Positions 22,316-64,000 of a stretch of DNA of 64,000 bases are shown here, piece by piece. The position numbers and the translations under genes were made by a program. Origin of the DNA: Leptogorgia sarmentosa (Eukaryota); the NCBI GenBank assembly GCA_964658305.1, contig OZ210885.1, positions 1,178,001-1,242,000 of the forward strand, read 5' to 3'. Within the stretch, counting starts at the first letter, position 1. Each line of letters begins with the position of its first letter. The notes beneath the pieces were generated by a model, which had not been told where the DNA came from, ran no database searches, and saw only the letters and a program-made list of their open reading frames with translations.

Positions 22316-25300
22316 TTATTTCCCAGCACGCTTTCGTGAATTTGGAAAAGGACGCCTTTCAAGTTTGTGTGCGAAACTCTCACGGCATATTGGGCAGCGT
22401 GTGCTATATAAAACGAAAGTAGAAGAGTTACTCTTTTAGGTGAAGAAATGTTTCAAAATCATGTGGGATTTATGTGTAAAATAATGCTCAACATCTGAAA
22501 TTAAGTATTGGATAGCTGACGTTGGTCCTTGCCCTTCGCATGAAAAATACAAAAAAGCCTTTTCTTTGGGCGAGAAAATCTTGTCCTCTTCCCCATTGAA
22601 CTCTTCTCATTATTAATTCTATGGCGAAAGGACCGTGTTTACACACAAACACATAAATAGATTATTCATTTCTAAACAAACTAACAATGTTATGAACAAC
22701 GCGTCTATGCTACCATAGTCATCTTTGGCCCTTATGCAGCCTTATCTAATGCTTATTTGAATCAGTCTGGAAAGCAATGACCTATAAAACACCTTTACGA
22801 GCAAAAAAGTGCCTCACACCCCCCATTCCCTGCAACCCCGCCACACTTTAGTTTGTAAATGAATGACCAGGAACTGAACTTAATACACATATAGTGCGTG
22901 ATTGGACAACAACATGGCGGACATTAAAATCGAAATCAGCTCTGCTGTAAAAATTCCTAATAATTACTCACTCGCATGGGCGTACGAGCCCTATCTTGTT
23001 TGGGGGGGCACATTACTGTTTGCCCGACAGGACCTGTGGAACGACATTTGAAGTGGGGGGGGGGGGGAAGCTGACAGATAAGGGGGGGCGAAGCTCACGA
23101 GGCGCCACCATGGTTGGCGCCGAGCGAGAAAATTTAAAAAATTTTGGGTCTCTAGATCGTCGGAAATGGCATTTTCAAGGTATCATAATTATACCTCTTT
23201 CGTTATGTAATACATATCCGATCTGAAATACTTGAGCTTTGGAATTAGAATACTTCACTGATATATGATGTTTTAGAGGATAATGATTTTCATCGTATTG
23301 TTGATGTTATATTGTCTAATAAATTTAATATTCTATCAACTATGATGGAGTTATGTTTGCCCGAATTCGAGCTCAATTGCCCGACCGTGAACGGTTTGGG
23401 GGGGCACAGGCCCCACCGTGCCCCCCCGGCCCGTACGCCCATGTTCACTCGACCGGAATCTGAACGAAATTCTTCGTTACAAAGAAGAGAATTGCTTTGC
23501 TCATCACAGGAGCCGTATTGTATGGACAGACTCCTTTAAAATGCTGAAGTTGTTCACCAAATGTGCTGTCGAACAGCCTGGCATTTGGTCATCGTCTGGT
23601 GGCAAGTATAAGAAATTTACAAGCTCTGTTTCCGACTTAATTTTTACGTGGACTGACTTTTCGGGGGAAGGAAGGGGCCCGTCTAAAGGAGCTCCTTATT
23701 TATGTGTGCTCGCTGGTAGATTTAGAGCCAGCTGGTAACGTTCACTTCGTCAATGAGGAAGTCGCACAAGTCGCTAACACTGAAACTAATGTAAGAGCTG
23801 GACAGTCGAATGCTGATGGCAATCCTCTGTTAACAACCGGGATCGCATCAATAAACTGTAGTTCGTCAATCGATCTTAACTCGCAAAATTCGAACGAGCA
23901 TATTGAAAACATAGATCTAGATATTGAAATTTTGAAAAGCAGAGTTGATGCATTACAATCGCTGGCAAATTCTGGAACTGTTTTATCCCCTGTACAAGTG
24001 GACAATAGAAATAGAGATGGCGATGACATTGTTTGTCTACAAGCACAAGTCAATGAACAAAAATGCAAAAATATCAAACTGGAGGAGGAAGTTTTGAATC
24101 TGAAACAAGAGATTAATGCTCTAAAATTACTCATAAATCAGCAAAGAGTTGTCAAACCCCAAACCATACCTCGAAGTGACGCATCGGTGAATAATGACAA
24201 TAACACATTTATAATTAACTACAACAAAGGCAATAATGACTGCCCAAATTACCATGAGACCAACAAATGCCAATCTCAAATCACTGGCTCCCAACCTTCT
24301 ACATCCAATTCTATAAATTGCGGCTCCAAAAATGTGGCCCCCCTTGGCGAGTACCAACAAAATAATACATTACAAGCTAGCCAAAGCAAAGATAGTTCGG
24401 AAAAGCCTCCGGAACTGGATTGGATCAGTTCCCTACCTCTGATTGACGTACCTATACAAGTCAAACATAGAATCAAAAACGCGTAAACCCTGTTAACAAT
24501 AGTTCTAGCGCCAGTCATCAAAGCCCCAAGCAACATCCCTGTTTTCCGAACCTTAATAGAAATCGTGACCGCACAGATAACAACTTCGTACTTCAAAACA
24601 GAGCCAGACTAGTCCGTAGACAAAAACACCAAAGTCGTCCTCCTCCTCCTTTTCGTATAAATCGTCGACGGACAGCCGATTGGCTGGAATATCTGAAATT
24701 TGTCCACCATATGACCAATGTGAACATCCCTGTGAACGTCCAAACCTATTCACGCCGTCCGCGCCCCTTCTCAAGGAACATAATATCACAGTGAGAATAA
24801 CATCCAGAAGTAATCACTCATCTAGAAGAAGACCCTATTCTTATATCCCTGTAATTACTGACAAGACCACCCTGGCCAACTCAGTTTATCCAGATAAACC
24901 GATCAACACCCGACATTCCCTTAACGGAAAGTCGCCCTTTTTTGTTCCTTCTTTAGTCTTACTAAATTGTTGTTAAATTGCATGCAAATGACGCTCCTTG
25001 GATGACCCCATATTTTAAGGAGTTAATCCATAATCGTCAAAAAGCCCTGAAAGAAAACAACATCCTGCTCTTTAAGTTTTATCGAAACAGAGTCAACCGT
25101 GAAAGGAAATTAATTAAATCGAAATATTACAGGAACAAGGTTGAAAATTTGAAACATACCGAACCAAAAAAGTGGTGGTCTTCTTGTAAGAAGATTTGCG
25201 GTATGTCAAAACCGAATGCGAGGATCGTCAATAATCTTCTGAAAATGGAATCGCTGTCTATCAATTCCAAAATAAAATTAGCTAACGATATAAACTCAAC

Positions 25301-28300
25301 GTTTCTGGATCCTTTGCAAAGTTACTCGAAACTATCCTCAAGTGGTAAAATTGCGGTGAGTAACCATCGAGTTCCCCAAGTCACCATCGAATCGGTCGAA
25401 AGGAAACTAAGGAAAATAAAGGAGTCTAAAGCACCTGGCCCTGACGACATTCCAAATTGGCTCCTAAAATCCTTTAGTCATCTACTTGCTGAACCAGTTT
25501 GTTACTTAATTAACATGTCCTTCCAAAAACAATTATTACCTACTTTATGGAAAAAGGCTAATGTCATCCCCCTACAAAAAAACCAGATCATTGAAGATTT
25601 TAACAAAGATCTCCGGCCGATCGTAAGCAAAGAGTGAAATTGGAGAATGATATCTTCTCAACTTGGGACAATGTTCCCGCAGGCGTTCCTCAGGGTTCAA
25701 AACTGGGACCATGGCTCTTCCTAGTGATGATTAACGATTTAGATATTAAATCATCCAATGGTAATGCGATTTTTGTTGATGATACAACATCCTTCGAAAT
25801 TGTCAGCAAACAAGGGTGACAGTTCTGCTCAAGCTATCGTTGATGAAATATCCAATTGGTCAAGTGAGAACAAATTTCAGATTCAACCAAAAAAAACTAA
25901 GGAATTGCGAATATCGTTTAAGCAGTCTCCGTCTGCTTTTGCCGACCTGCAGGTTGGTGAGACCACGGTCGAAGTTGTGGACTCCTTTCAGGTGCTGGAT
26001 TTGACTATACAAAGTAATCTTAAGTGGAACCAACACGTTGAAAAAATTTGCAAAAAGGCGTCTAAGCGCCTTTACTTTCCATCACAGTTGAAACGAGCAA
26101 AAGTCCACACTAAAGACTTAGTAAATTTCTACGTTACGTGCATCCGCCCTGTATTAATATACGCTTGTGAAGTTTTTAACCTTAACTTATAAGAAAAACT
26201 AAAGTTATCCATGGAACGAGTCCAAAAACGAGCAATGAGGATTATTCACGGCTTCGATACACCATACGAAGCTGCCCTTGATTTATCGAATTTGGAACGG
26301 CTATCATCCCACCGGGACAACCTTTGTGACAACTTACTGCTAAAGATCTCCGGCAATACGGAAGACAAACTTTTTGAATATCTACCTTTTAACACTAACA
26401 CGGACTTGCCATTAAGAAACATTAGGAAATTTTCAGTCCCTAAGTGCAACTCGGACCGGTTTAAAAATTCTTTTATTAATACCTCAACTAGTCGTTATAA
26501 CGAATTTTATTGTAAATAGTGTTTTAATTGTTTTTATAATATAAGTAGGGTAAAATCTGCAACGTGATTGGCTAATGAGCGTGCATTAAAACAGCGTAAT
26601 GCACGCATCTAGCTATTAAATTTCTCCCGCGACTCTTTGGTTTGGCAAAAAGACAATAAAAATACATATATATTAAAAATACATCATAAAAAACGCTTGA
26701 ATTGTTTGCTCTCGCTCAGCTAAAGGAATAAAGCTGTGTTGCTGCTTGGCAACACTTGAGAACACGCTTGATTACATGTAAAGAGAATTGTAATTTTGAT
26801 CTTCCTAACGAAGTTTTTGTTGCGCTAATATTCTCTTATATTATAAAAGAAATAGAAAAACTCGTCGCGTGCCATTATGCTGTTATAATTGCACTCGGGC
26901 AATGTTGTGAGAATACTCGAGAATCGCGTAAAACACGCGGCTACGCCTCGTGTTTTACGCGATTCTCTCGTATTCTCCCAACATTTCCCTCGTGCATTAT
27001 AACAGCATAATGGCACGCGACTCGTTATCTATTTCTTAAATAAATTGTCTAATACCATATTTGTAAACCTAATCAATTCAGTCTATGTACTGCAATTTGG
27101 GTAATTTTAATAAACTATCTATCTATCTATCTATCTAATATTACAGACAATTACTGAGCAGAAAATTAAGATAATATCACTTAGTGTGTAATCTTGCTGG
27201 AAACACCAAATTTATATCAGAACACACGATATTAGAAATTTGAGCACTTACATTCCGCTACGTATCATTTGTGTCGCACATTCTTTGTGGACTTTATGAG
27301 AACATGGGAGAATTTGACATCCAGTGAAAGCATCCTATGATGAAAAGAGTAAAAAACATTTTGTGAAATGTAATGCTTAACTGGAATATAAATTTCTGAA
27401 TTTTGTACGCATATGACGATATAGTAAGTTTGATGCCCGAGCCATTCAGCCCTAATTAAGCCGTAAGCTTTCCAACAACAAGCCCTAGGCCTGCTTGAAA
27501 CACAATTCATTGAGTCCATCAATTGATGAACGAAGCATTATGCCTTTATAATGCGCATGCTCATTTGGCTCTCATTCAGCCAGTATCCTGACATGAATAC
27601 TACTAATGCTAAATTAAAGCTGCATGCATGTTTTCCGTCTCAATTTCATATATTATAATAATCGCGATATACAATTTAAATAAATTTGAGTGTTGATCTC
27701 CATTATAGATACTATTATAGATATACCTATTATCTCTTGAGTATATAAGAAGCTGCGTTGTGACTTTAGTATTTATTATAATAAGATCATCCAAGATTGG
27801 CAACTTTCTCACAAATAATAATCCATCATTTAGAAATACATACATCGCAAACTACGCTTTAAACTGAAACACTACAACAATATACTGCAAAATAACTAAA
27901 TTAACTAGCGAAGGTTGGGATGTATGTATTTCTAAATGATGGATTATTTGTGATAAAGTTGCCGACCTTAGGGTAATCTTAATATTTATAGATACAATGA
28001 CTGCGTGCGAACTGCGTTCGTGAGAGACGGTGAGTGCATAGTTGATGACAGGCACAATAAGCAACGCCTGGAAAGACAGACTACGACATTCAAAGATGAA
28101 TTTTCGTTATTTTTAATGATTTTTATGTTAAATTAAAAAAAAATTGGGCTATCTGTGGTTTAGTTGAAGAGATGATCGTTTGACTGAGCTACTTTGTTGT
28201 AACATAACCTAAACATCGCTTCAGACTTGGTTATTGTTGAGACTGGAATTTGGATTTTTTTCGTATCAAAGCTCAACATTAGTATACAAATAATGAATGT

Positions 28301-31300
28301 TTATGAGTGCAATGGTAAGAATATTTTCATGAGGTGAAAGATGGAATGTTCCATTCAACGAGGCGAAGCCGAGTTGAATGGAACATTCCATCTTTCACCG
28401 AATGAAAATATTCTTTCCATTTCACGAAATAAACATTCATTATTTGTTTTATATGACACCAAAATAAATCATTGACACGAAATACCCGCCATTTTGTTTT
28501 GTTAGTTTACTAAATAAAATTCCATCGCTCACATGGTCGCGCCACGTTCATGGATTCTCCATTAAATGCGTGCGATAATAACATTTTGAGTGATTGAAAA
28601 TAATTAAAACTACCGTGCAATGGAAAGAAATATTTGCACGGTTCCATTGCACGATCATGAAAATGGAATTTCTATTTTATATCACGTGATCGTAAATAAC
28701 CAATTAAATCGCGTCAATTTAACAAAGTGTTATATAATATATTATATACCTCCAAACAAATGCAACACTCGTCATGGGCGGAGCCTTCACGACATTTGTG
28801 GTTTCCACGAAGTTGCACATCCAAACAAACTCCACAGACATCACAATGAAACGAACGATCTCCGTGAATTCTAATTTAAAAACAATTTTTTCATTCAACT
28901 CTATTGGCATTTTCATAAGCTATATCATGATCTTAAGGCCCGTTTACACGAGCGATTTACGATTTTCTCTTTTTGACGGATGTGAACGAGTAAACCAGGC
29001 ATGAGTGTTCCATTGAACTAATGGAGTGTTCAGATGAGGAAGCACGCACTCAACACATTCGTTATTAATCCACTCGTTCACATCTATCAAAAGGAGAGGT
29101 GCATGACAAACATTTCATGATATCAGTAGTCGTTTTTTAAAAACATTTTTACATTTGGCTCTCAATAACTGCATAGTTTTAAATTTCGTATTTTGATTGG
29201 TCTCTTTCAGTCAAGATTAGGAACTATCATAGCAATATAATTAAAGTTGAAATAATCTGTTTCAATGTTTAGCGAGAAGCTTTTTGAACAAATTGAGCTG
29301 GAGAAAAGCTTCACTCATAGTGCATGTTATGTAGCTACAAAAAGCTAATCAAATTATACCTGCAGATTCCGCACTTTCCACAATGATACGGATGATCATC
29401 GGTGCCAGTCAAATGTTTACACATTCCACAATAATACTGCGCAAATCTGGCACCACAATTGCAGCAATGTTCACCAAACTAAAAAAATATTTGTAAAGAA
29501 GAAAACGTTCAAAAAGAGCAATTGTAATTATATACCTACACTGGCTACATATTGAATGTTTTTTTTTCACCTTATCATATTTGGTTACATATAGTTCCCA
29601 ACTCGTTAGACAAATATTTGTTATTTGTAACCTTTATTTCCCTTGGATTTTTAAACAAAAAATGCAGATAACCTGTTGCACTTTGTCACAGTAAACGCAC
29701 TTCAGCATCTTCGTGTCACGTGATTTCAGCTTCTTTCGACCACATGTGCTTTGGTTGTTATGACAACGATGACAAGGCCAAAACTTGTCACAACAATCAA
29801 ATTTGACATAACAATGTCGCTTGTAATGACTGCATAACCAGTTGTCGTCTCGGTCAGGGGTCTGGTTACGAGGACCGCCACGCGATTGAAAATTGAAAAC
29901 ATTCGTAGGTTCGTTGTCTTTTCGCTGGAATTTAGAATGTTTTGAACCATTGCTACCAACAGACTGACTGTTTGGTGCGTTGTTTCTCGTTGATGGTTTT
30001 GGAGAGGGACTTGCAGTCATTGCTCTTGTTTCTCCTGTTTTCAAACAGTATTAATACAAATAAAGATTTTGCCTCGATGTGAAGAGTGAAATGTCAAACT
30101 GAAATAACTGATACGTGCGTAATTCTTGCAGCATGAAGCTGATAGTCTGAGGCATTTTAATTTATGAAAGTTGAATAGTGCTGTCATAAAAGAATTTTCA
30201 GCATCTGAAGCGCCATTCAATTGTAAATCATCCTAGTCCTATAAGTGAAATCCTAATCTTATAAGTGAAATCCTATATCTCAAAAAAATTCATATCGAAA
30301 GTACACTCACTTGTAACAGGTCCATCCGCCGCACCCACGTGGGAAACAAACCCAGACGCAACATGTTTGAGTATTGGTTGCTCGGAGGTTATGGAGGAGA
30401 ATTGATTGGCAAATCTAGGCTTAGGAATACTTCGATTCAAGGGATTCAGTGAGGTAGCTTGCTGACTTTGTGGGGAAGCGGTGTTTCGCCCACCACCGTT
30501 GTTTCCTGGCTTCATTGTTGAATTTATGTATCCGCTGGCCTGTAAATGACCCTTGGATGGATTTGGATGGATTGAAAACTGCCCAGGATTCAAAATTCTT
30601 GAAGTGGTTGCATGCCGAGAATTCTGTGCACCATTTGCAGTCTGCTTTTTTGAAGCTGGAGTTTGACGAAGTAAGTCATAATCACCACGTAGAAATGCAT
30701 CGATGACATACACAAGATCGAATCTGATAATGGACTCGAAGAAGTCAGACAGTCGATTCAAATCTGAAGCATTTATGACCCGCTTTTCATCAAGTTGAAA
30801 CAGAACATCAGTAGCATTCTGAGGATTCTCGATTGAAAAATTCTGAGCTGCCCAATCTTTTAGCATCACGACGTCGGAGGCAAGAAGTCTTTGAGCCAAA
30901 GTTAGTAACAGGAGCTTGTAGTTGTTGTACAGAGTTGTTGCGACGGAGACGGGTGGTTTAGAGTCCAGGGATATGTTCTCCATTCCTGAATCGTGCTGTT
31001 GAACAGAGAATGAAAGAACTTCACATGTTTGCTGGGATGTCGGTCCCGAGTTACTACTGGTTGCAATCACATCTTCAAATCCGTTGCCTCCTCTTCCACC
31101 ATCTGCATTCGAGGTAGATGTAAAACTTTCTGTTGGAGGAGATGGATTTTCTTCGCTCAACTTTAAAGACACTGAACCTTGCACTATTTCTTCAGTTTTT
31201 TTCACAGATTGTTCATTGAACGCAGCTGATTGGACAGGTGATGCATTTTTTACCGAAGGATTAGCACTTGCAGTTGTGGTTTCAATAGATGAAGAGTCAC

Positions 31301-32363
31301 TGGGAGAAAAGCTTTCTTGCTCATTCTTTGGGTAGCCAAGCCTTTCGTTTTTTGTTCTGCCATTGCTGGTGGACGCGAGAGATGGTTTAGTTCCAGATGA
31401 TGAGGAATGATAAATTTTACTGAACAACTCGGATTTTCTTTCTTCGTTTCTCTTTGCATTTTCCTCGACAGAGAATTTTTCAAGCTCGAACAAAGACTCT
31501 TCATACTGATGGTTTTTCATTTCTAGCGATTCCACTTGTTTTCGGAGGGAACGGTTGTCATCTTCTAGTTCCTGCATTTCCTTCAGGTTTGGTTGGATGG
31601 ATTCAATACCTCCTTTTTTGCGTATTTTCGAATCTCTTTTCATGGTCTGGAATTTTCCATTTTCCTTCATTCCCATTGACTTTTCGTGAAGTGTATCAGG
31701 ATCATTTCCAGGATTTCTTAGACCGAAATTCGGAAATTCTTTGCAAACACTAGGTGGTTGGTAAGTGTAATAGCCAACATCGTTTTCCATGTCGATATCT
31801 CTTGTCTTGGGCTTCTCGAGAGCAAATTCCCCAGATTTTCCACATTCGTTGATGTCGTCTTGGGGACTTTTTTTTGTTTTCAAGGAACGTAAGCCATTTA
31901 ATAGGAAACGGAAGTTGGTATTATCTGCTGTGAAAAATTCGTCGAAAGCTTTTTTTCCATTATCGAACAAGAGTTTTATTTGTCTAGCAGTTTCTTGGCT
32001 TGGTTTTTTGAAATGGCTCTCAAACAAATCTAATGAATGCATAGCTTCTAAAAACGGTGCTTTCATCTCAGAGGTGGAATGCAAAATATCAGAGAACGGT
32101 TTCTGATCATCAGGATTTGGCGATTTTATCCCTGTGAATTCGGAATTTGCCTCATTTTTGGGCGAATTAGCATCAGAAGAACTATATGTAATTACAGTGG
32201 GCATACAATGTTCAATTTTATCTTTGCTTTCATTCAATGTCGCCAACGAGTCTTGCAGTGCGACAGGCAACAGTGCATTTATCGCCATAAAAAGACTCTG
32301 AACGATTGCCATTGAACTCTTTGGCGTGATTCCTTCATCAAACCTGTTACGTTTTTTAACCAT
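22316..32363 (-). CDS. DED-CHY-CTCHY-RING-H2 protein, paralogue A (death effector domain plus RCHY1/Pirh2-like E3 ligase module), about 941 aa
   Basis: Exons 32363-30311, 30034-29673, 29478-29360, 28870-28750, 27334-27252, 22403-22316 (2826 nt, in frame). DED at ~30929-30678 (YNNYKLLLLTLAQRLLASDVVMLKDW...DVLFQLDEKRVINASDLNRLSDFFESIIRFDL). CHY: CSHYKRHCYVKFDCCDKFWPCHRCH. CTCHY: YYCGMCKH...YHCGKCGICR...FHCDVCGVC...HKC. RING-H2: CCICLEDAFTGCQILPCSHKVHKECATQMIRSGITRCPICR. Confidence 0.88.
22975..23443. mobile_element. hAT-type MITE inserted in LINE ORF1
   Basis: TIRs catgggcgtacg / cgtacgcccatg; 8-bp TSD ctcactcg/ttcactcg; removing it restores ORF1 (...NNYSL-DRNLNEIL...). Confidence 0.85.
26525..27040. 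mobile_element. Hairpin-centred repeat inserted in the LINE 3'UTR
   Basis: Long palindrome at ~26860-27025 centred on cgcggctacgcctcg; it separates the ORF2 stop (26519) from the LINE tail. Confidence 0.6.
28284..28735. mobile_element. Hairpin-centred interspersed repeat; internally deleted relative at ~16112-16320
   Basis: Central palindrome gaaagatggaatgttccattcaac-gaggcgaagccga-gttgaatggaacattccatctttc; the 5' part (tatacaaataatgaatgtttatgagtgcaatggtaagaatattttcatgaggtgaaagatggaatgtt) also occurs at ~16112. Confidence 0.7.
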
Positions 32364-50127: not shown

Positions 50128-53100
50128 ATGAGTAGTGGTCGTGCAAAGTTAGACGTCGCCTCTGAAGAGCGAAGTTTAATCACATGGCTGCAATATATTA
50201 TACATGTAGGGAAAGACGTACCTGACACACTGGAACGTGCCTTCAGAATTTTCCGTTTTGATGTCAACAACCAGACAAAAACCGAGTTACTAACGTGTAT
50301 ATCCAGGGCAAAAGCTACATTTCGGACAGTCTGCAATTCATTAAGTTTGTTCGAAAGGTATCTCAAATGTCCCAGTCAGGAAAATTCCACGCTGTTGCAG
50401 CTGTCGTTTGGTCAAGGAAATATTTGTGAACCTAACGATCCTTTTTCACCAGAAAACGTGGACAATTGTTCAGATATCCTACCATATATTCTAAATGTCG
50501 AGTCTTCCTCGTGCCTCTACTTTGAAACTGGAACAAATAAAGCTAACGATTTCACGAGGGAATATTCAACAGATCAAGAACGCGCAAAAGAAACCAGTCA
50601 TGTCATGCAAGAACCAAACGTGGAGGAAGATGACTATCGTTCCCTCCGAAAACAAATGGAATCACTAGAAATGAAAAACCATCAGTACGAAGAAAGTTTG
50701 TTCGAGTTTGGGAAAATTCTTGTTGAAGAAACTGCAAAAAGAAACCAAGAAAGAAAGTTAGAATTCTTGAGTAAGATATATCATTCCTCAACATCTGGAG
50801 CTAAACAATCTCTCGCGTCCAGCAGCCATGGCAGATTTTCTCCGTCACAGATTGTCCACCCTCCGCTGGTCAAAGAATGTGTTGTATCGTTTAGCGGTGA
50901 AAATCCAACCAATTGTAGACCTGATTCCCGAAATAGTTCGAACAGATTTACTGAAGCTCAAGCCACAAATGAAAATGTTGTTCTTGCCAACCAATTAAAA
51001 ACCTCAAATCAGCAGAATCCAAGAGGAGCTGAGGCCATGGTGAAAAAACGTAACCATCAACTGGAAAAAGACGTGGGTTCAAATGTACCAACATCAAAAG
51101 GAAATGCAAAGAATGAAAAGGATGAAGCTGCAAACATGACAAGAGGTAGTGACCTGCCTTCAACATCACAGCAAAGTTATGATTTATCATGCGCCGATGA
51201 GCGGGATGATTCTCGCATGCAGAGCTCATCCCTTTCCACAATACAACCATCACCAGTCGCAACAACTTTGTACAACAACTACAAGCTCCTGTTGCTAACT
51301 TTGGCTCAAACACTTCTTTCCTCTGACGTCGTGATGCTAAAAGATTGGGCAGCTCAGAATTTTTCAATCGAGAATCCTCAGAATGCTACTGATGTTCTCT
51401 TTCAACTTGATGAAAAGCGGGTCATCAATGCTTCAGACTTGAGTCGACTGTCTGACTTCTTCGAGTCCATTAACAGATACGATCTTGTGCACATCATCGA
51501 TGCATTTCTTCTTGGTGATTATGACTTACTTCGTCAAACTCCAGCTTCTGAAACACGAAATGGAAGTGGTGCACAGAATTCGCAACATGGAACCATGGCC
51601 ACTTCAAGAAATTTGAACCCCGGGCAGTTATCAATCCATCCAACTGCTAGTGATGCTTCACAAGGAAGCGAAGGAAGAAATCCCACCACGTCGAGACCAC
51701 CAGAAAACAGCGGCGGAATATCAAATTCTGTTCTCCAGCAAACAGAACAAACAGAACAAACAGCTTTCCAAAATTCGTCAGAAGAAATCAGTATGTGTAA
51801 CCCTGCTGCTGTCAGCTCTCTTGCTCGTGGTAAGTGTGTTTTATTGTTGCTATAGACTGCGTTGGCTAAAAATATGGTCGCATGTTGATGCATTAACCAA
51901 AGCATAGTGACAGTATTACCAAAACCTTTTTGCCAACGTACTCTAGCTATCAATAGCCGTCGTAATAAAATATTTAATGTTTTAAATGGATATTTAATGC
52001 AAATGTTTTATTGTTATTTTTTGACAGGGTGTAGAGGAACAGCTGGAGGACATTCTACATCTAATTTCCTGAATGTTGGCCCATCCCAGAACGAAGATGT
52101 TGTTCAGGAGTTCAATTGGTTATGTAGTCATTACAAACGGGATTGTTTAAGCCAATTTGAATGCTGCGAAAAATTTTGGCCGTGTCATCGATGTCACGAC
52201 AACCCTGGGACGTGTAGTCAAAGAAAGCTACAACCACGTGACACGAAGATGGTTAAATGTAAACAATGCAACAAAGTGCAAAAGGTAACCGAAAATATAT
52301 TACGATAAGAAAATTAATATCAAATGATAAGATGTTAAGGTGAAGGGTTTTTCAAATTTTGTACTGACTGCATGAAACAAAAAATAATGTATTCTACAGG
52401 GTGTCCCGCAAAAACGTCCCCTCTATAGAAAGCACTCTGTTGTTAATCTCGGGTTATTACACCTGTGGAAATTTTATTTAGCTTCTGACGAACAGCGACA
52501 AAAGCGCGTGCTGTTATAAATACTTCTGTCGTTCATGAACCATTCAATTATATTCTCAAAATTATAACAACGCACGTTGGACAATAACAGTGGCGTCGCC
52601 AGCTCGATAAGTGAGGTGGACATATTCATATATTCGTGTTTTGCACAATTAATTTCTTTTGAAATCGATTGTTTTTATGGTCTGCGAACACGAATATATG
52701 AATATGTCCACCTCACTTATCGACTCTGGCGACGCCACTGGACAATAAAAGAGCTGATTTCTATAAAGGTGACTTATTTGGGGGACACCCTGTTTAGATA
52801 TATGAGATGTTAAGCTGATAATCTTTGATAGATCCGTCCCAATGTTGTCATTGTTCAAGCTAGCTAACTTTTTAGAACAAATTACAAAATACTTTTGTAA
52901 TTTCTAGTGAAATTTCGCGTTTCACGGCTTAATTTGTTCTTACTAAAGTTATACCACCACTAAAATTAAATTGAAACTCCACCTCTGGGACAAGGCAAAT
53001 CGTTATATAGCCATGACGTAATGGTAATTGTGATTGGCTAGTTCGGGTCACATGACCCTAATTAAACGCAATGTTGCCCCGCGGGCAACAAGTAAACAAT

Positions 53101-56100
53101 TGTTGCCCTCCCAAAAACAAAATGGCGGCTTTGAACTTGCAAGATTATAAATATTTTTTTCAAGTTTTTTTAAGACTACAGAATCTAAAAGAGACCAAAA
53201 TACACAGCAGGCAACATAAAATGCTGTGGAAATACTCTAGGCAAAATTTTAAATTTAAGTTAAATTATTCAGTTTGTATGGTTTTTATCACCAAATACAA
53301 TTGTTATATAGTTGGTGTCAAAGTTCAATTTTCCTGTTTGCTGATTGGACAAAACCGTATCACGTGCCGGTCCACAAAACGTCATGTTCGCCAACCGGTC
53401 AAAAATCAAAAAATTATTGACCGGGCAACAATTAAATGGGCACAATGCGCATGCGCGTCAACCGTGAAATCCAAAGTTCATTCAATCGTACGATGTTTTG
53501 AAATTTAGTAAAATGTCGACTGCTGTCACTGTTTTTTGCTTTCAAAGTTCACTCCAGTATTAAACCGGTGAATTCATTCATATTTTGACACTAAACTATA
53601 TAACAAAACACTTATTTACTGAAACCTCGAGAAACATTGTGTTTTGTGGCCCCTCGACCGCCATTGTTGCCCTCGGCTTCGCCTCGGGCAACAACGGCAG
53701 TCTCGGGGCCACAAAACACAATGTTTCCCTCGGTCTCAGTAAATAAGTGATAATTGTTGTATGAATATTTTTTATTTTTATTTCGTCGCTAGCTATATAA
53801 CAAAACACTTAAAGTCTGTTCCATTGGGGAATAGTTAACTTTGTTTCCCCTCGCAACTGAATGTTTCCCGAGACGAAAACAAAACTATTTCCCTCGCGAG
53901 CAGACATTAAGTGTATAATTTACGAGTTTCCCGTGTGGATTGCGAGTTTGCGCAATCTGACTGGCATAGACCGAAAATGTAAGAAAATTCTGTAAACTGG
54001 TCAAAAACCTTTTCCCCATTGTTGACAACAAATTCTATGATTAATTTTAGCTATCTTAAAATATTTTTCTTCTAGTTTTCTCCGATCTGCTCTCATTGTC
54101 ATTCAAAATTTGCGCAGTATTATTGTGGATTGTGTAAACATTTAACTGGCACTAATGATCATCCGTATCATTGTGAGAAGTGCGGAATCTGCAGGTTCAA
54201 TATTTCATTACTTTATATTACATACAATTATTGATTAATTACTGAATAATTTACATTTTAGTCATAATGTAGCTTGATTGATTTTCCTTGATATAAGCGT
54301 GCTCAATGGAGAAGTACTGAAGATTCACCGTCACTATATATATAGTGACCTCTCACTGCCAAATAAAACGATGTTAACAGAATGCCCTTTGTCATCGAAG
54401 TCTTTTTATCGTGCAAGTAGCAAGTTCAAATTTAGTGCTGTTAAAATCAATAAGTTTGATAGTTTCCGTCCACGATGATATATTAGGGACCTTAAAATCT
54501 TCAACTATGTACATGCGCCATAGAAATAATGGACCGAAGTCTTTTTTTGAATGTAAATACTCGCCGAAAATATCCATTTTTTTCATCGCTTATTTTCTCT
54601 TGAAAATTTTAAAATTAATATGTTTTGTCCTGAAACTTCACACGCAGTTAGCGACAGTCACGAATTTACTGAAATACGATAAATTTGGTTTAAATGTTGT
54701 TTCAATAAAACAAAATTTACCGAATTCAACCATTTTGCCACCCAAAAATGGCGCATTTAAGGCCTGGTCGCATAGCGTGAGAAAGGCTAATTTGAGTTTC
54801 AAAGTGAATTAACAGACATACAGAAATACACAAATTATTCACAGCAGTCAATTTTTGTTAATTTAGAATTCATCAAGATCGTTCGTTCCATTGTGATGTA
54901 TGTGGTAGGTGTTTTGAAAAACGTTATCGTCGTCTCCACGAGTGCCATGATATGTGCTGCGTTTGTTTGAAGGTAAAATGTCTCAATGGATCTTCGATTT
55001 AAAAAATTACATAGAGTTAGTTTGGTTCCAAAATGACTGTGGTCCGAAAAGTCATTAGGTTGAATTTATTTATATTTGCATTACTACATAGCTAGTACCT
55101 AGTGTATTATCACACATGGTGCGCTGATAAAACATTTTATCTACATAAGAGTTCGATCACACTTTAAAATACGGTATTATAAATTTATCATGCAGTATCA
55201 AAACAGTGGAAAAACTGGAATGTAACAATGAATAAACTGCAACAGCTAGGTTGTCTATTGGCGCGATAACTTTGTCGTTGACGGTTTTTCCAGTGTTTTG
55301 CTGTTGTTGATTCATTCCATCAACATTTCAATGATTTTAATTTTTTCATACCTTTCGACGTCTGACGGTGAATCCCTGCCATTTCGGATTGTTTGGAATA
55401 ATGAAATATTATAATTAAAAGTTCTATCCTGTGAAAACCCCTTACAAATAAATGATAAGTTATGATATTGTCCTGTAATGAAGGGCCGCTACGTTTTTCT
55501 TTATATAGGAAGCCATCACTCAGTCGCTCATGCTTCCATGTCGTCATAAAGTCCACCACAGATGTTTGGCACAAATAACACGAATGAGAATGTGAGTATA
55601 TTCATTTCCTAAATTTATAATATATAGTGGTATCATCCAGAGGCGTAGCGATGGCTGTGTGGTTGGGGGGGTGCACGACTCAAATTTGCCGACAAAATGG
55701 GCCTGATCGGGGTGTGGTCAACGACGTTATCAGCTAAAATTTTCAATGTACATACACAACGCTTCATACTTTATTTGTTACATTAATACTAAATACAACG
55801 CAGTTTTAGTTAAAAATATTTTCCCCACATACCCTGGCCTCGAAATGTGCAGACAAATAATTTGACAGCTGTTCTTCTCTTGCCGACCGACAGAGGCAAC
55901 ATTGAGGGGGGTGCGACACCCCCCCCCCGCATCCCCTCTTCGCTACGTCCCTGGTATCATCAACAGTTACCCACGGATTCTCTCTGTCCATGCATAAACA
56001 TGAAACACAACCCAGTATACTTGAGGTGCTTGAAGTGATTACATTTAAAAAGCCTAACTAATATTTTTTGACGGATTAATTAAGACGACTATTTTTTCCA

Positions 56101-56482
56101 AGTTTCATGAAACTCAGCGAAATGAAACTAATCAACAAAAAAGTGGCTGATGCCCAACAACATTTTTCCTTTGAATATTTCAGCAGAGCAAAATCTTGAG
56201 CAAGCATAGCAGTTTAACATTTCATCTAATTGACCATGAAGGAATTTTTATTACAAAATATTAAGTATATCTTCCCAAAATAAAACACTGCATGTGATGA
56301 ATATCTGAATGCGGATATATCCCCCCATGCACTCGTACGTCCATGAACCTTTTCAAATTACCCAACCTCAGTGAACCCTAACACCAAAGAAACGTTCCCT
56401 CGGTTTTCTTTTCAGAATAACATGCGGATGTTGTGGAAAAAGTGTACGAAAAGAAACCTACATGACGCCCAGTCTAACATGA
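50128..56482 (+). CDS. DED-CHY-CTCHY-RING protein, paralogue B (divergent C-terminal module), about 777 aa
   Basis: Exons 50128-51829 (acceptor at 50083), 52028-52284, 54076-54194, 54867-54972, 55509-55591, 56416-56482 (2334 nt, in frame, ends TGA); same exon phases as A and C. DED at ~51271-51522 with RYDL. CHY: CSHYKRDCLSQFECCEKFWPCHRCH. RING: CCVCLKEAITQSLMLPCRHKVHHRCLAQITRMRIITCGCCG. Confidence 0.85.
52397..52792. mobile_element. Tc1/mariner-type MITE in an intron of paralogue B
   Basis: TIRs cagggtgtcc / ggacaccctg after TA; a second, uninterrupted copy lies at ~57375-57608. Confidence 0.75.
52588..52740. mobile_element. Small palindromic hAT-type MITE nested in the Tc1-type MITE
   Basis: TIRs cagtggcgtcgccag / ctggcgacgccactg; perfect 8-bp TSD gacaataa. 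Confidence 0.85.
55638..55953. mobile_element. hAT-type MITE in the last intron of paralogue B
   Basis: TIRs cagaggcgtagcga / tcgctacgtccctg; perfect 8-bp TSD gtatcatc. Confidence 0.85.
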
Positions 56483-57374: not shown

Positions 57375-57608
57375 CTGGGTGTCCCCCAAAAAATTCCCGT
57401 CTATAGAAATCACTCTGTTGTTAAATCTCGGGTTATTATGCACCTCTGTAAATTTAAATTAGCTTCTGACGAACAGCAACACAAACACGTGTTGTTATAA
57501 ATACTTCTGTCGTTCATGAACCATTCAATTATATTCTCAAAGGCTTAACAACGCACGTTTAACAACAGAAGAGCTGATTTCTATAGAGGGGACTTTTTTT
57601 GGACACTG
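57375..57608. mobile_element. Tc1/mariner-type MITE, copy without the nested insertion
   Basis: Shares ttagcttctgacgaacagc...ttataaatacttctgtcgttcatgaaccattcaattatattctcaa with the copy at 52397. Confidence 0.7.
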
Positions 57609-58851: not shown

Positions 58852-61800
58852 TTATTTCCCAGGACGTTTTCGTGAATTCAGTGGTCGCCGCTCAAGTTTG
58901 TGAGCAAAACTCTCCCGGCAGATTGGACAGCGTGTGCTGTTGAAAAATAGAAAATACTGCAGTTAGTGTCTATGAAAGCTATCAACACATATCACTCAAT
59001 CAATAATTAAGTCGGTCACCGGTTCTATGATCTTTAATCATGGCGTACAACCACGGGTCCCCAAAAAATTGAGTTGAATTTCAACATAGAAATTAAGTTG
59101 TGAACGTGGTCAACTTTTCCTTTTAGTTACGATTACGCTTAAAGTTTCCAGTAACACAATTTTCAAACAGTGCGGAAAGACAAGGGCGAGTTGGAGTTAG
59201 ATGTTTTTTTTACAAGTGCAATTTTCGCACGCGTATATTTTTGCTTCGTTTCATTCCCTCATTGTTTGAAAAGTGTGTCATTCACCTTTATAAAAGATAA
59301 ACTGTCTTCACGACTAAATTTGTGCGCAATAGCGTGTTGAAATTCGATTCGGGTTTCTTTCGATACATCCGCGGTAGTTATCGGAATGAAGAATCATCGG
59401 CTACCCTTTGCTAGATCAAATTCTACTTAAATCTTCAAACAGCAGATACACTTACATTCCGCTGCGTATCATTTGTGTCGCACATTCTTTGTGCACTTTG
59501 TGAGAACAAGGAAGAATTTGACATCCAGTGAAAGCATCCTGCACAAAAAAGCAGTTTATTGATCAATAAAAATACGAGCATGCATGTGTATATTTAAGGA
59601 CTCGACCAGGAACGGTATTACGTAAACGGACACCACCAAAACAAGGTTTTCGAAATTTAGGGTTAGCTTTTAGGGTTTTTTTAGGGTCATAGTTAGCTTT
59701 GGGGTTAGGATTGTTTTATATTTAGGGGTAGGGTCAGTTTTAGGTTGATTTAGTGAGTGGAAACCAATATTTTGGTAGTTACGGCCATGCCATGCAAGAT
59801 CGTTTCGCAATAGTTGAGAGGGCAACACGAAAGAGTCCTGGTATAACTGCGAAGATTGGTTGCAAAATATCGTGAATTGTGGAAGGTGCGGTCAGCTGAA
59901 GCTTGCACATGTTGTATATATTTTGTATTACTTCCAGAAAAGCGTTACAAATTTTCAAAAAGTGCAGCACAAGGTTTTTTATCGAAAATGGAGGTTACAA
60001 CATGTGATTCAGGTGTAGTATATGTGGGATATTCAAGTCACAATGTCAGATATTCCCGTTAAGCTAAGCTTGTTCAAATTTATACACAATTTGCTTTAAA
60101 CCAGGGACGAAACCATACAACAGATTCAATACAAGTTGTGATGTTTTTACGTGTGTAGAGGGGGGGGCTTCAAGCTTTTTTGCAAGGTTATATATAGTAA
60201 TACGTCAGACAGGGCGTTTCCATAGTAGATTAATTACTTCCAAAACTTCATACAACAAATGAAAGTGACACGGTGAAACACATTTGAAAGTGAAACAGTA
60301 CCTCCAAACAAATGCAGCACTCGTCATGCGCGGAGCCTTCACGACATTTGTGGTTTCCACGAAGTTGCACATCCAAACAAACTCCACAGACATCACAATG
60401 AAACGAACGATCTCCGTGAATTCTAATTTGAAAACAAATGTTGCATTGCATTAATTTCTTCAGCTATAAAAACTCCCCAACCAATTTCCCGCCAAAAACC
60501 TATTATTTTCCAACTTGTATCTGTTGTTCACTCAACGCTTGTTTTACCTCCTAAGGTTGATTCATAAAGTGAATAGAATATGTGAAATTCAACTCATAGT
60601 TGGTTCAATTGACTTATGCATCCAGATAATCTCAATACACGGAAAAGAACTGGGACCTAGCTGTCATATATAGAAATCCATTTTTCGATTGAAACAACTT
60701 AATATCTCCCATATTATACACTTCATTTCGATTCCTTATTTTTGCCAGAGCTATAGTTCTCATAGAAGTTTCGAGTATTTGTAATTGCTTTCTATTACGA
60801 CTCTCGTAAAACATGCAGGCAGTGGTAGTCATGAAGCCCAAGAATATATCATAATGTATGTGGTCTATTGACTAATTGGTGTACCTAAAGAGAGTATGTT
60901 AAATATATGTCGATTATGCTAATCAAATTATACCTGCAGATTCCGCACTTTTCACAATGATACGGATGATCATCGGTGCCAGTCAAATGTTTACACATTC
61001 CACAATAATACTGCGCAAATCTGGCACCACAATTGCAGCAATGTTCACCAAACTAAAAAAATTTCATAGATATTTCTTCATTCTCTATTTAATAATATTT
61101 ATCATACTAAATTTGATTATCGAACATAAATACGCATCGATTGTTAATCTCATACACCTTGTTAGTTGGCACAAATAATCATCATTTTTGGGAACAACTT
61201 CGGCGTAGACTACAAATTTTATTTACGACATAAAATGTGGGTTACCTGTTGTACTTTGTTACAATATACACACTTCAGCATCTTCGTGTCACGTGATTTC
61301 AGCTTCTTTCGACCGCACGTGCTTTGGTTGTTATGGCAACGATGACAAGGCCAAAACTTGTCACAACAATCAAATTTGACATAACAATGTCGCTTGTAAT
61401 GACTGCATAACCAGTTGTCGTCTCGGTCAGGGTCCCGGTTGGGACTGTTGCTTCGTTCATTGTCTGGACGTTGGAACTTGGAAAGTTTTGAACCACCGTT
61501 ACCGACTGCCCGAGTATTACGTACGCCATTTGCTGATGATGAAGTTGTCCTTGTTCCATCATTTCCTGACGTTGTTCTTCTCTCGTCTATATTTTTAAAA
61601 GAAGGAGTTAGAGAAGCAATAAACAGAACGTACCAGTTCGTGGAAATATTAAAAACAACGCAAAATGAACAGAGTTAGATTCCAGTATTGTGGACTTTCG
61701 ACACAGTTCGAGTCATTAATCATGTGAAAATGAAAGTAATACCCTTTCAATATAGCAACTTGATAGTATTTAATATTTTTGTTTCACGCGCATTATCTTT

Positions 61801-64000
61801 GTTTAATCAAGGCAATTCAGATAAAGAATGTCAGATAACGCTTGTGGACCTTACAAAGTGTTTGGTACACATGAATCACGATTTATAGGGGGCCTAGGGG
61901 CTGATATTATTTTTAGATTTTAGAATGAGATTAGGATCAGGATCGGGGTCAGGTTGAGGATTTTGGTTGGGATTCTAACACAAGAATGTGACAGGTATGA
62001 GGTATTTGTTTGGTAAATTCAAGTATAAAAGTGTTACGATTTTGGAAGGGATTACCTATCAGTTAAAGAACAACGCGATTCGATAGGCGGGGTAAAACTT
62101 AATAAGACAAACAACAGTACATATATGCATATATGGTTAATAAAAATAATGCATATATGGTTAATTTTGGTTACAACTCGAAGTCGCCAAGACTCATCAA
62201 ATTGTTTTTAGCGAAACTAAGTTTTAAAATCTATCAAATATATGAGAAACTATACAGGTACACTTACTTGTAACTGGACCATCCGCATTAACTGTTACCT
62301 CGGTCATTCTAACTGAATTAAATCCACCAGCTGGTTTACCGGGGTTTTGCTGCTCAGATGCCGAGGATTGGTTTCTCAGAGACCTAACAGAACTGCGTGT
62401 TGAACTGGATGTATCTGAGAAGCTTCTCGAAGATTGCGGTTGAGTCGAAGGGAGGGAATTATGTACTCCACTGTTTACAGGTGCTCTGGACAGATTTCTG
62501 CTCGTGTTCATCGAAAATTGACCGCTGTTCATGGCATTTAGAAAACCTGGATTCCTGGTAATGGCTCTACGTCCATGGTTTTGTACCAGATTTGCAGCGT
62601 GCTTTTTAGATGCTTGACTTTGACGAAGTAGATCATAGTCACCAAGGAGAAATGCGTCTATAATGTGCACAAGATCAAATCTGACAATGGATTCAAAGAA
62701 ATCAGAGAGTTGATGTAAATCTGACGCGTTGATGACTCCTTTTTCATCAAGTTGAAAGAGAATATCAGTGGCATTCCGTGGGTTATTGATTGAGAAATTC
62801 TGAGCCGCCCAGTCTTGTAGTACAATGACGTCCGAGGAGAGAAGGTTTTGTGCAAGGGATAGCAAAAGGAGCTTGTAGTTGTTATACAAGGTTGTTGCAA
62901 CTGATGTGGGTGGAATGCTCCTCAATGATATGGACTCTCTTCCAGAATCATCTTGCTGGACCGAAAATGACAAACCACGCTGGGATGCGGACGCCTGATC
63001 GCGGGTTCCCTCGACATTTCCTGATGGACTACTTCCCTCTCCGCCACTGGAGTTCTCTGTAGATTGGATACTTGCTGTATTTTGGACCGTTGCGGTTTGC
63101 TCGACGCCGTTAACAGTATTGCTTTCCTGATTACTTGCTTGGAACGTCCTTTCATTTTCGTCATTTCGGACATTCGCTACCCTGCCTGGTTGATGGTTGT
63201 TCTCTTGCACCAAGGCCTCGGCTCCATTGACGAGGTGACCACGAGAGGAAGCTGCTTCATCCACAGTTGATGAATTTAGTACTGGAGGATTTCGACTTTT
63301 ATTACTACTGATCGGAGGTCTTGACGAACCATTTGCACCAAAGTATCCTTGATCACCGTTTTCGCCGTTGTTGCCCAACTCATTCGATCTGGGCTTTCGA
63401 GAGTTGGACGTGGCAGATATTTCCTGCGAGGGAGATTGAAATATGTGACGGAAGTGCTCCGATTTTCTTTCTTCGTTTTCTTTAGCCGTTTTCTCAACTG
63501 TTACTTCGCCAAGCTCTGACAAGATCTCGTTGTTTATGGACTGCAATGCTGCCAGTTGCTTTCTAAGAGACAGGTTTTCATCCTCCAGTTCTGTTACTCT
63601 CGCGGAAATCATCCGAGTTGATGGCTGCGAGAAATACAGAGAATTCCGTCCTTTCAACGCGTTTTCTTGCGACGTCTTTTCATACTTCATCTTTTTGTCG
63701 GCACCAGAATCTCCAATATGCCCAGTAATCCACTTTCCTGGACTTTGTTTTTCAATCTGTGGAACATTGATATCGTTGAATATCTTTCTTTCGGGCTTCT
63801 TTCCTTTTTTACATTGTTGACGATTAGAATCTTCTTCTAAACATGCAAAATCTTGCACTTTGGTTTTCGTCTTTGTTTTTAGGGAAGCTTGTACCAAATC
63901 ATCTTCAGGTTTCTGGAAAGTACTTCCGGGATTGTGATCATAAGTTTGAGCAGCATCGTCGCGGTCAATGTTTCCACACAGATTAATGTTTTCTGTTTTC
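58852..64000 (-). CDS. DED-CHY-CTCHY-RING-H2 protein, paralogue C (5' end outside the window)
   Basis: Large exon open from the window edge to 62268, then exons 61586-61246, 61052-60934, 60422-60302, 59538-59456, 58936-58852. DED at ~62886-62635 with RFDL. CHY and RING exons nearly identical to A; ends TRCPICRESFAHKLERRPLNSRKRPGK*. Confidence 0.88.

What the first reader, a model, noticed from the sequence alone, without database searches (positions are those of the whole stretch)
22316..64000. Cluster of three DED-CHY-CTCHY-RING genes: a death-effector-domain-coupled Pirh2-like E3 ligase family
Seen in sequence: three intact spliced paralogues (A -, B +, C -) share exon phases. Each has one very large exon encoding a coiled coil, low-complexity linkers and an ~84-aa helical domain with the RxDL motif (RFDL/RYDL), followed by small exons encoding CHY, CTCHY and RING-H2. 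Established: RxDL is the DED signature (FADD, caspase-8, cFLIP); CHY-CTCHY-RING-H2 is the RCHY1/Pirh2 ligase module, which normally has no DED and continues into a C-terminal zinc ribbon that is absent here. Inference: these are ubiquitin ligases recruited by DED-DED contacts to FADD/caspase-8-type complexes, forming a lineage-specific, expanding regulator of cell death or innate immunity. I do not know this architecture from characterised proteins.
Basis: partly seen in the sequence, partly recalled or inferred. Interest (0 to 1): 0.88.

Follow-up and report, generated by a model that had tools for sequence, protein, structure and literature searches.

The report
Soft-coral death-domain ubiquitin ligase cluster
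Three neighbouring soft-coral genes join a cell-death signalling domain to a shortened Pirh2-type ubiquitin-ligase module whose binding pocket has changed, so they likely tag immune or cell-death proteins rather than faulty ones, and coral-dwelling bacteria carry copies of the same module, likely taken from their hosts.

Summary
Three six-exon paralogues (A, B, C; C is cut at its 5' end by the window edge) have 15 of 15 GT-AG introns in shared phases. Public contigs join A's DED exon to its CHY exon. The helical domain folds as a death effector domain.

The architecture is not new: Patil 2023 notes DED-Pirh2 fusions in cnidarians in one sentence, with no experiments in the parts read.

Added here:
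- It is an expanded octocoral family without Pirh2's C-terminal zinc ribbon.
- The two arginines that bind the alanine-tail degron are absent in 188 of 188 modules; Arg41 is mostly His.
- The DED is a private subfamily lacking the FADD/caspase-8 FL motif. It occurs behind helical, TPR or HEPN-NACHT heads, and beside a caspase or death domain in none of 101 proteins scanned.
- A and C keep the RING linchpin Arg; B lost it.
- The same module occurs intronless, often with a signal peptide, in nine gammaproteobacterial genomes (seven named Endozoicomonadaceae), interleaved with coral copies in the tree (single bacterial origin rejected).

The FADD/caspase-8 partner is untested and less likely than family-internal or non-canonical partners.

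The parts
30311..32363 (-). Gene A coding exon 1: helical N-terminal domain, coiled coil, low-complexity linkers, DED. An acceptor at 32402 with an in-frame stop before the ATG implies an upstream untranslated exon.
   Evidence: X1-X3 contigs end at about 32401-32405
31854..32363 (-). Gene A: conserved four-helix N-terminal region (about 140 aa), no known fold or family found
   Evidence: 76 of the 335 proteins then held match its profile; model pTM 0.42; best Z 5.8
30648..30959 (-). Gene A DED with flanks (RFDL)
29673..30034 (-). Gene A exon 2: linker and CHY finger
   Evidence: zf-CHY 41.2 bits; junction 30311/30034 in X2 and X3
29360..29478 (-). Gene A exon 3: CHY end and CTCHY
28750..28870 (-). 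Gene A exon 4: CTCHY and RING start
27252..27334 (-). Gene A exon 5: RING-H2
22316..22403 (-). Gene A exon 6: RING end with linchpin Arg, short basic tail, stop; no zinc ribbon
   Evidence: junction 27252/22403 in X1-X3
50128..51829 (+). Gene B coding exon 1: helical N-terminal domain, coiled coil, DED
51241..51552 (+). Gene B DED with flanks (RYDL); the stretch that was folded
   Evidence: pLDDT 92; the top 11 structural matches are DEDs
52028..52284 (+). Gene B exon 2: CHY finger
   Evidence: zf-CHY 43.7 bits
54076..54194 (+). Gene B exon 3
54867..54972 (+). Gene B exon 4 (five codons shorter than in A and C)
55509..55591 (+). Gene B exon 5: divergent RING
56416..56482 (+). Gene B exon 6: RING end without the conserved Pro and linchpin Arg, stop
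62268..64000 (-). Gene C exon 1 (5' part outside the window): coiled coil and DED (62605-62916, RFDL)
61246..61586 (-). Gene C exon 2: linker and CHY finger
   Evidence: zf-CHY 40 bits
60934..61052 (-). Gene C exon 3 (118 of 119 nt identical to A)
60302..60422 (-). Gene C exon 4 (119 of 121 nt identical to A)
59456..59538 (-). Gene C exon 5: RING-H2
58852..58936 (-). Gene C exon 6: RING end with linchpin Arg, stop

Best explanation
These are three paralogues of an octocoral gene family that joins a death effector domain to a Pirh2-derived CHY-CTCHY-RING module lacking the zinc ribbon, and they likely act as ubiquitin ligases in immune or cell-death signalling. Shown: gene structure, splicing of A, domain content, altered pocket residues, purifying selection. 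Predicted: the DED fold. Inferred mechanism: (1) a variable head (helical domain, TPR array or HEPN-NACHT fragment) and the coiled coil would set location or input; (2) the family-specific DED would cluster members with each other or with a like DED partner, rather than slot into canonical FADD/caspase-8 filaments; (3) the remodelled CHY-RING groove would bind one conserved peptide ligand that is not a poly-alanine tail; (4) the RING with its linchpin Arg (A, C) would transfer ubiquitin to that target, while B would be a weak or decoy member. Bacterial symbionts likely acquired the groove-plus-RING part repeatedly, which suggests that the target matters for host-microbe relations.
For: Fold: model pLDDT 92; VIA ranks 11 DED entries first (Z 12.8-9.8), then pyrin (9.5 or less) and death/CARD domains (7.8 or less); all 28 Foldseek rows shown are DED entries. 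The acidic/RxDL triad is kept in 240 aligned DEDs (D/E 92%, R 98%, D 96%). Ligase module: best PDB match is human Pirh2 7YNX, E 9e-34; eight RING ligands; linchpin Arg in A, C and 147 of 188 modules (19 rows end earlier; linchpin role PMC12326332 section 6). Pocket: Wang 2023 shows that Y23A, R41A and R109A abolish Ala-tail binding and that R54A, D94A and Q99A cut it more than 6-fold. Here Y23 (173 of 188) and R109 (186) stay, while R41 is His (178), R54 Ala/Ser (171), L92 His (174), D94 Thr (167) and Q99 Pro (184); no row has Arg at 41 or 54, and the canonical control L032 keeps both. The replacements are themselves near-invariant from octocorals to stony corals and bacteria, so the groove is under selection for something. 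dN/dS of A vs C is 0.00-0.10 in the four regions where it can be computed. Immune context: the same DED follows HEPN_DZIP3-NACHT heads (10 of 110 hits have NPHP3_N/NACHT; P0125 runs HEPN-NACHT-DED-CHY-RING) and an 11-TPR head (P0348); HEPN-NACHT proteins are an expanded anthozoan receptor class (PMC8260672 passages). At least 13 Dendronephthya and 14 Paramuricea proteins are among the 120 rows listed.
Against: No activity, substrate or partner was measured; the immune role rests on domain associations. Canonical DED partners can bind through surfaces other than the FL motif (PMC11074299 passages), so FADD/caspase-8 binding is not excluded. Pirh2 pocket numbering was read by eye from one alignment, and an Arg one position after 41 and after 54 in the octocoral copies might partly compensate. 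Most stony-coral members show no detectable DED (of the stony-type proteins held, only P0150 and P0143 have one, of a different type), so the DED is not essential to the module. Many DED hits are single-exon ORF calls on genomic contigs, so their full architecture is unknown. The kind of runs X1-X3 is not on record; RNA is inferred from their intron-skipping joints.
Confidence: 0.45

Rival explanations
1. One reading: the DED docks directly on host FADD/caspase-8/cFLIP assemblies and the RING ubiquitinates them, tuning extrinsic apoptosis (as a capping, cFLIP-like or cIAP-like regulator).
For: True DED fold with the RxDL triad. The best sequence hits in the PDB are caspase-8, cFLIP and FADD DEDs, though weak (E 0.0075-0.6). 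[quoted passage not shown] One stony-coral member (P0150) has an FL-bearing DED.
Against: The FL positions align to D/E/N and W in this subfamily. FADD F25R abolishes caspase-8 activation. None of 101 scanned proteins has a caspase or death domain. Identity to human DEDs is only 15-24%.
Confidence: 0.25
2. The DED is a PEA-15-like single docking domain for a non-DED partner (for example a kinase), and the ligase regulates ordinary signalling or development rather than immunity.
For: PEA-15 is the top structural match (Z 12.8, tied within 1 with vFLIP and FADD). There is a single DED without the FL motif. That PEA-15 binds ERK is seen in the PDB titles.
Against: Lineage-specific expansion, tandem clusters, signs of gene conversion, fusion to HEPN-NACHT and TPR heads, and repeated occurrence in symbionts are more typical of immune genes (general knowledge).
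Confidence: 0.17
3. These are Pirh2 quality-control ligases that still read alanine-tail C-degrons, with the DED as an accessory.
For: NTD plus RING is sufficient for Ala-tail binding and the CTD is not needed. Y23, I107, R109 and I110 are mostly kept.
Against: R41, whose loss abolishes binding, is Arg in 0 of 188 modules; R54, L92, D94, Q99 and F116 are changed, and the RING loop carrying V157/V158 is three residues shorter. A housekeeping role does not explain a dozen or more copies per genome.
Confidence: 0.08
4. The exons are pseudogene debris or belong to separate genes, so the fusion is not real.
For: B and C junctions were not checked against reads; C's start is outside the window.
Against: Open frames, 15 of 15 GT-AG introns in shared phase, the A junction in two runs, dN/dS well below 1, and 36 database proteins holding DED and CHY in one chain, including B-type P0005 and P0036 on 1.6-3.1 kb contigs.
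Confidence: 0.02

Closest known systems
Human RCHY1/Pirh2 (PDB 7YNX, 2K2C; Wang 2023, PMC10148881)
   Same: CHY, CTCHY and RING-H2 in the same order with the zinc ligands kept; best PDB match, E 9e-34; Y23, I107, C108, R109 and I110 of the degron groove kept.
   Different: No C-terminal zinc ribbon (122 of 124 full RINGs end within 40 residues). R41, R54, L92, D94, Q99 and F116 replaced and the RING loop shortened. Linchpin Arg gained (Pirh2 has Met there in the alignment). A 550-750 residue N-terminal extension with a DED. Multi-copy.
Cnidarian DED-Pirh2 fusions noted by Patil et al. 2023 (PMC10591846, section 12)
   Same: [quoted passage not shown] These genes are very likely members of what that sentence refers to.
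   Different: The sentence gives no experiments, expansion, loss of the zinc ribbon, altered pocket, alternative heads or bacterial copies in the sections read. Their Figure S10 could not be read and may show some of this.
DED proteins FADD, caspase-8, cFLIP, vFLIP, PEA-15
   Same: Six-helix DED fold, rmsd 1.5-2.4 A over 81-86 residues to FADD and PEA-15; acidic/RxDL triad.
   Different: 15-24% identity; FL motif replaced by D/E/N-W; a single DED in the middle of a long disordered region; joined to a RING ligase rather than to a death domain or protease.
Endozoicomonas RING+CHY eukaryote-like genes (Ide 2022, PMC9743535) and host-derived IAPs of Endozoicomonadaceae (Porras 2024, PMC11521996)
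   Same: [quoted passage not shown] Porras shows host-derived RING ligases with Sec signal peptides and an interspersed phylogeny.
   Different: In the passages read, neither links the CHY-RING genes to this DED family, to the altered pocket, or to separate octocoral-side and stony-coral-side origins.
Anthozoan HEPN(DZIP3)-NACHT NLR-like proteins (Emery 2021, PMC8260672)
   Same: Some family members begin with HEPN_DZIP3 and a NACHT-type domain with intact Walker A and B motifs (5 of 6 examined).
   Different: Window genes A and B have no NACHT. In carriers the NACHT stops after its first helical subdomain and, in P0336, joins the last helix of the family's own head: a secondary fusion with no repeat sensor.

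Membership tests
Death effector domain (PF01335) | Six-helix death fold closer to DEDs than to PYD, DD or CARD | tested here: met
   Model pLDDT 92, six helices; ranks 1-11 are DEDs at Z 12.8-9.8, PYD 9.5 or less, DD/CARD 7.8 or less; Foldseek probability 0.99-1.00 but E only 0.005 or higher.
Death effector domain (PF01335) | Acidic residue in helix 2 plus RxDL (charge triad) | tested here: met
   D/E 92%, R 98%, D 96%, L 86% in 240 aligned domains.
Death effector domain (PF01335) | Pfam gathering score 35.9 | tested here: inconclusive
   Window copies score 19.4, 25.7 and 22.6; relatives P0123 (38.1), P0133 (36.3), P0337 (38.9), P0391 (41.6) and P0422 (38.2) pass.
FADD/caspase-8-type filament DED | FL hydrophobic motif on the type Ib surface | tested here: not met
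   LKDW aligns with caspase-8 LKFL; the F position is D 36%, E 21%, N 12%, and the L position is W 97%.
FADD/caspase-8-type filament DED | Binding to FADD, caspase-8 or cFLIP DEDs | not tested
RCHY1/Pirh2 | CHY-CTCHY-RING-H2 with zinc ligands | tested here: met
   zf-CHY above cut-off in all three genes; 7YNX E 9e-34; Cys/His columns near-invariant.
RCHY1/Pirh2 | C-terminal zinc ribbon (PF14599) | tested here: not met
   Stops follow 12-21 codons after the last RING cysteine in A, B and C; no PF14599 in 30 family proteins, whereas control L032 has it at 79 bits.
RCHY1/Pirh2 | Ala-tail pocket Tyr23/Arg41/Arg54 | tested here: not met
   Tyr kept in 173 of 188; Arg at 41 in 0 of 188 and at 54 in 0 of 188; both kept in L032.
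RCHY1/Pirh2 | Orthology with canonical animal RCHY1 | tested here: inconclusive
   No canonical cnidarian RCHY1 came back (0 of 111 rows with PF14599); the only outgroup is one long branch.
Active RING E3 ligase | Eight zinc ligands, Pro and cationic linchpin at the last CxxC | tested here: met
   Met in A and C; B keeps the ligands but has Gly at both the Pro and the linchpin positions, and its RING dN/dS is 0.49-0.71.
Active RING E3 ligase | E2-dependent ubiquitin transfer | not testable with these tools
   Needs an in vitro assay.
NLR / STAND receptor | NACHT domain plus C-terminal sensor repeats | tested here: not met
   No NACHT in exon 1 of A or B, nor in the part of C inside the window; relatives carry a truncated HEPN-NACHT without repeats.

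The most novel reading that the evidence does not exclude
Anthozoans turned the ancient Pirh2 C-degron reader into a modular innate-immune ligase family. Swappable sensor heads (HEPN-NACHT, TPR, helical), a private DED for assembly and a re-tooled groove recognise a new conserved degron on an immune or death-pathway protein. Endozoicomonas-type symbionts captured the groove-plus-RING at least twice, from soft and from stony corals, and export it without its DED control, to ubiquitinate the same host target.
Probability: 0.3. Interest if true: 0.82.

Novelty: new variant of a known kind. Interest (0 to 1): 0.52.

Why it matters
Corals rely on innate immunity, and the way their dominant bacterial symbionts avoid it is an open question. 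This family gives a concrete, small (about 175 aa) module that hosts have expanded, that symbionts appear to have copied repeatedly, and that carries the same pocket substitutions on both sides. Finding its ligand would name a host protein at the centre of that relationship. It would also show how a C-degron reader can be re-specified. The DED-plus-Pirh2 architecture itself is already noted in print, which caps the novelty.

Tried and rejected
No whole genome is held for this window, so copy number and a canonical RCHY1 in this species could not be counted. No RNA holder is listed in the run index; RNA character of X1-X3 is inferred only from their joints. B and C junctions have no read check.

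A three-copy DED complex prediction gave no verdict (score 0.00); it is not evidence either way. The N-terminal helical region gave a low-confidence model (pTM 0.42), no Foldseek match (best E 2.0), best VIA Z 5.8 and no Atlas hit: no assignment, and no claim of a new fold.

A scan of genome contigs with P0140 alone found nothing; the alignment scan did. A search for shorter relatives returned no canonical RCHY1. DEDs were sought in the ORFs of the 33 bacterial loci with two profiles and none was found. A tblastn of the window found no fourth paralogue or stray exon.

The idea that C has a HEPN-NACHT head was rejected: 12 of its 12 best matches have the helical head. The idea that the family descends from NLRs was weakened: P0336 shows the NACHT fragment joined onto the family's own head. 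Earlier scan findings: none. Literature searches for DED+CHY+RING+coral (0 papers), RCHY1+coral+expansion (3 unrelated listings), octocoral+DED+NACHT+genome (1 review, not read) and Pirh2+cnidarian+DED (2 listed, 1 relevant) found no study of this family in the open-access library; subscription papers are mostly not covered.
Full report
Observation. Six-frame translation and the raw sequence gave three six-exon genes (stops): A on the minus strand (32363-22316, 941 aa), B on the plus strand (50128-56482, 777 aa), and C on the minus strand (beyond 64000 to 58852, at least 826 aa). All 15 introns are GT..AG with phases 1,0,2,0,2 in each gene. C is cut by the window edge; its closest relative (P0009, 91% over 185 aa) has about 150 more N-terminal residues with the same helical head as A and B. 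A tblastn of all proteins then held found no further copy in the window.

Splicing. Six public runs hold the A region, none on record as RNA. Four were laid at 90% likeness on 21900-33600. X2 and X3 skip exactly intron 1, and an X1 loose end at 30310 matches the start of A's exon 2, not C's. X1-X3 skip introns 2, 4 and 5. Intron 3 is not among the 15 joints shown (71 were not shown), but loose ends in X2 and X3 match the neighbouring exons. X4 covers all 30 bins, including introns, and behaves as DNA, yet it also shows the intron 4 joint, which I cannot explain (a processed copy or a paralogue). Paralogue transcripts may contribute at this threshold. B and C were not checked against reads. B-type proteins P0005 and P0036 hold DED and CHY in one ORF on 3.1 and 1.6 kb contigs, and P0036 is B's sister in the tree (100/99).

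The DED. Pfam gives only 19-26 bits against a cut-off of 35.9. A model of B's domain from a 102-row alignment has pLDDT 92 and six helices. VIA-align against 48,161 chains ranks 11 DED entries first (PEA-15 Z 12.8, vFLIP 12.1, FADD 11.8, caspase-8 11.3), then pyrin domains (9.5 or less) and death or CARD domains (7.8 or less). All 28 Foldseek rows shown are DED entries, though none reaches E 0.001. The acidic/RxDL triad is conserved in 240 aligned domains, but the FL motif is not: the F position is D/E/N and the L position is W in 97%. In human complexes FADD F25R blocks caspase-8 activation, while the caspase-8 DED2 FL motif is needed for filament extension but not for binding FADD or cFLIP (PMC11074299, passages). 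So the change argues against, but does not exclude, canonical partners. An exhaustive search finds 154 clusters with this DED. I scanned 96 of the 150 listed plus 5 family proteins: none has a caspase or death domain; two have HEPN-NACHT heads, one an 11-TPR head, and seven have CHY. Many of these are single-exon ORF calls, so absence of other domains is weak evidence.

The ligase module. The best PDB match of a spliced relative (P0104) is human Pirh2 NTD+RING, 7YNX (E 9e-34). The zinc ribbon is missing: 122 of 124 complete RINGs end within 40 residues, and Pfam finds none in 30 family proteins. Wang 2023 (PMC10148881, parts 1-3 of 7 read) shows that NTD+RING suffices to bind alanine tails, that Y23A, R41A and R109A abolish binding, and that R54A, D94A and Q99A weaken it. 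I mapped those positions by eye and counted them in 188 modules (152 from proteins and 37 from loci, minus the control; some are duplicates). Y23 is kept in 173 and R109 in 186, but position 41 is His in 178 and never Arg, 54 is Ala or Ser in 171 and never Arg, 92 is His in 174, 94 is Thr in 167, and 99 is Pro in 184. The canonical control L032, which has the zinc ribbon, keeps R41, R54, D94 and Q99, which supports the register. Patil 2023 says the Ala-tail site depends on these basic positions (sections 11 and 12). The groove has therefore been rebuilt and then conserved, which points to a different ligand (inference). A and C have the RING linchpin Arg (role from PMC12326332, outline and section 6). 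B has Gly there and at the preceding Pro, and its RING evolves fast (dN/dS 0.49-0.71, against 0.00-0.10 for A vs C where it can be computed; 43-92 codons per region).

Mosaic paralogues. A's DED is 88-98% identical to B's in DNA over about 300 bases, with a sharp edge at 58% (dS 0.14, against 1.13 to C), whereas A's CTCHY has dS 0 to C over 67 codons and 0.61 to B. Short-tract gene conversion is the simplest reading (inference).

The family. The DED search returned 110 proteins; every row with a species name is an octocoral. The window is thus probably from an octocoral (inferred). Of the 120 rows listed for the CHY-RING search (163 found), 30 are named octocoral proteins (13 Dendronephthya, 14 Paramuricea, 3 Xenia), 18 are stony-coral proteins and 8 are Endozoicomonas or Sororendozoicomonas proteins; none is a named anemone, hydrozoan or bilaterian. 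A four-helix head of about 140 residues is shared by 76 of 335 proteins and has no assignable fold. Ten of the 110 DED hits instead begin with NACHT-type domains, nine of them with HEPN_DZIP3, in the same single ORF. P0125 is annotated through to CHY and RING. P0336 shows the NACHT fragment joined onto the last helix of the ordinary head, so this is a secondary fusion. HEPN-NACHT proteins number 83 in Dendronephthya (PMC8260672, passages). Stony-coral members carry TPRs, long disordered regions or, in P0150 and the unnamed P0143, a different DED.

Bacterial copies. A pattern scan of 185,579 prokaryote genomes gave 33 loci: 32 in nine gammaproteobacterial genomes (seven named Endozoicomonadaceae, two uncultured bins), six of them on one Endozoicomonas chromosome record, plus L032. 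They are intronless, have no DED, and 17 of 29 ORFs start with a hydrophobic stretch by a crude test. A quick tree of 152 modules and a careful tree of 56 rows that I picked (C left out as nearly identical to A) split octocoral from stony-coral modules at 100/100. Seven bacterial rows lie on the octocoral side and 18 on the stony side. AU tests reject one bacterial clade (p 5e-51) and one animal clade (p 2e-43). The root is not resolved: the single outgroup is a long branch. Host-to-symbiont direction is inferred from Pirh2's age in eukaryotes and the narrow bacterial range. Five of the seven octocoral-side rows come from metagenome bins whose contigs I did not verify as bacterial. Ide 2022 already lists such genes in Endozoicomonas clade B (PMC9743535, passages), and Porras 2024 shows a parallel case for IAPs (PMC11521996, passages). 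How a signal-peptide protein would reach host cytosol is not shown.

Prior art. Patil 2023 states that in cnidarians Pirh2 fuses to N-terminal DEDs; its supplement could not be read and may show more. Searches found no study of the family in the open-access library. No earlier scan finding matched.

Verdict. A real, spliced, selected gene cluster of a noted but uncharacterised architecture. It works most likely as a DED-assembled ubiquitin ligase family with a re-specified substrate groove in immune or death signalling (0.45). Direct FADD/caspase-8 recruitment is the main rival (0.25). It is Pirh2-derived but fails two defining Pirh2 features, so I rate it a new variant of a known kind, interest 0.52.

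Noticed in passing
window 3247-6802 (+): Spliced gene with astacin, ShK-like and F5/8 type C domains; an ordinary cnidarian-type metalloprotease by its domains.
   Followed up: partly
window 8118-11635: 80-bp satellite, 44 copies at 98% match. On the minus strand the unit reads like the C-terminal end of a LINE reverse transcriptase (resemblance recalled), and flanking ORFs at 7961-8284 and 11486-11791 continue it, so it seems to have arisen inside a LINE tail.
   Followed up: partly
window about 23400-26530 (+): Internally deleted, broken LINE-like element, antisense in intron 5 of gene A: a coiled-coil ORF and reverse-transcriptase fragments (RVT_1 weak, ALKBH8_N). X1-X3 do not cover its first part.
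   Followed up: partly
window 27333/28749: The DNA-like run X4 shows the exact intron 4 joint of gene A at depth 190: possibly a processed retrocopy or an intron-less paralogue elsewhere in the genome.
   Followed up: no
window 30645-30944 vs 51250-51550; 28750-29488 vs 60302-61062: Gene A is a mosaic: its DED is nearly identical to B's and its CTCHY exons to C's, suggesting short-tract gene conversion.
   Followed up: yes
L032:3013-3792: A canonical Pirh2 with zinc ribbon in an Acidimicrobiaceae metagenome bin, on a 30% GC contig; probably a non-bacterial contig in the bin (inferred). Used as control and outgroup.
   Followed up: partly
L012, L016, L017, L025, L026, L027 (Endozoicomonas sp. 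ALC020 chromosome): Six loci, five of them within about 36 kb, carry long ORFs ending in the CHY-RING module, several with signal-peptide-like starts: a tandem expansion in the bacterium.
   Followed up: partly
P0001, P0337, P0422, P0116, P0111: Variants with two DEDs (P0001, P0337, P0422) or two whole modules (P0116, P0111; may be merged gene models).
   Followed up: no
window 17604-17824 and many 100-230 bp palindromes (e.g. 26841-27043, 27769-27995, 28286-28447, 53598-53762): A 21-bp tandem repeat and high-copy inverted-repeat elements in introns and intergenic DNA, MITE-like (very high X4 depth).
   Followed up: no
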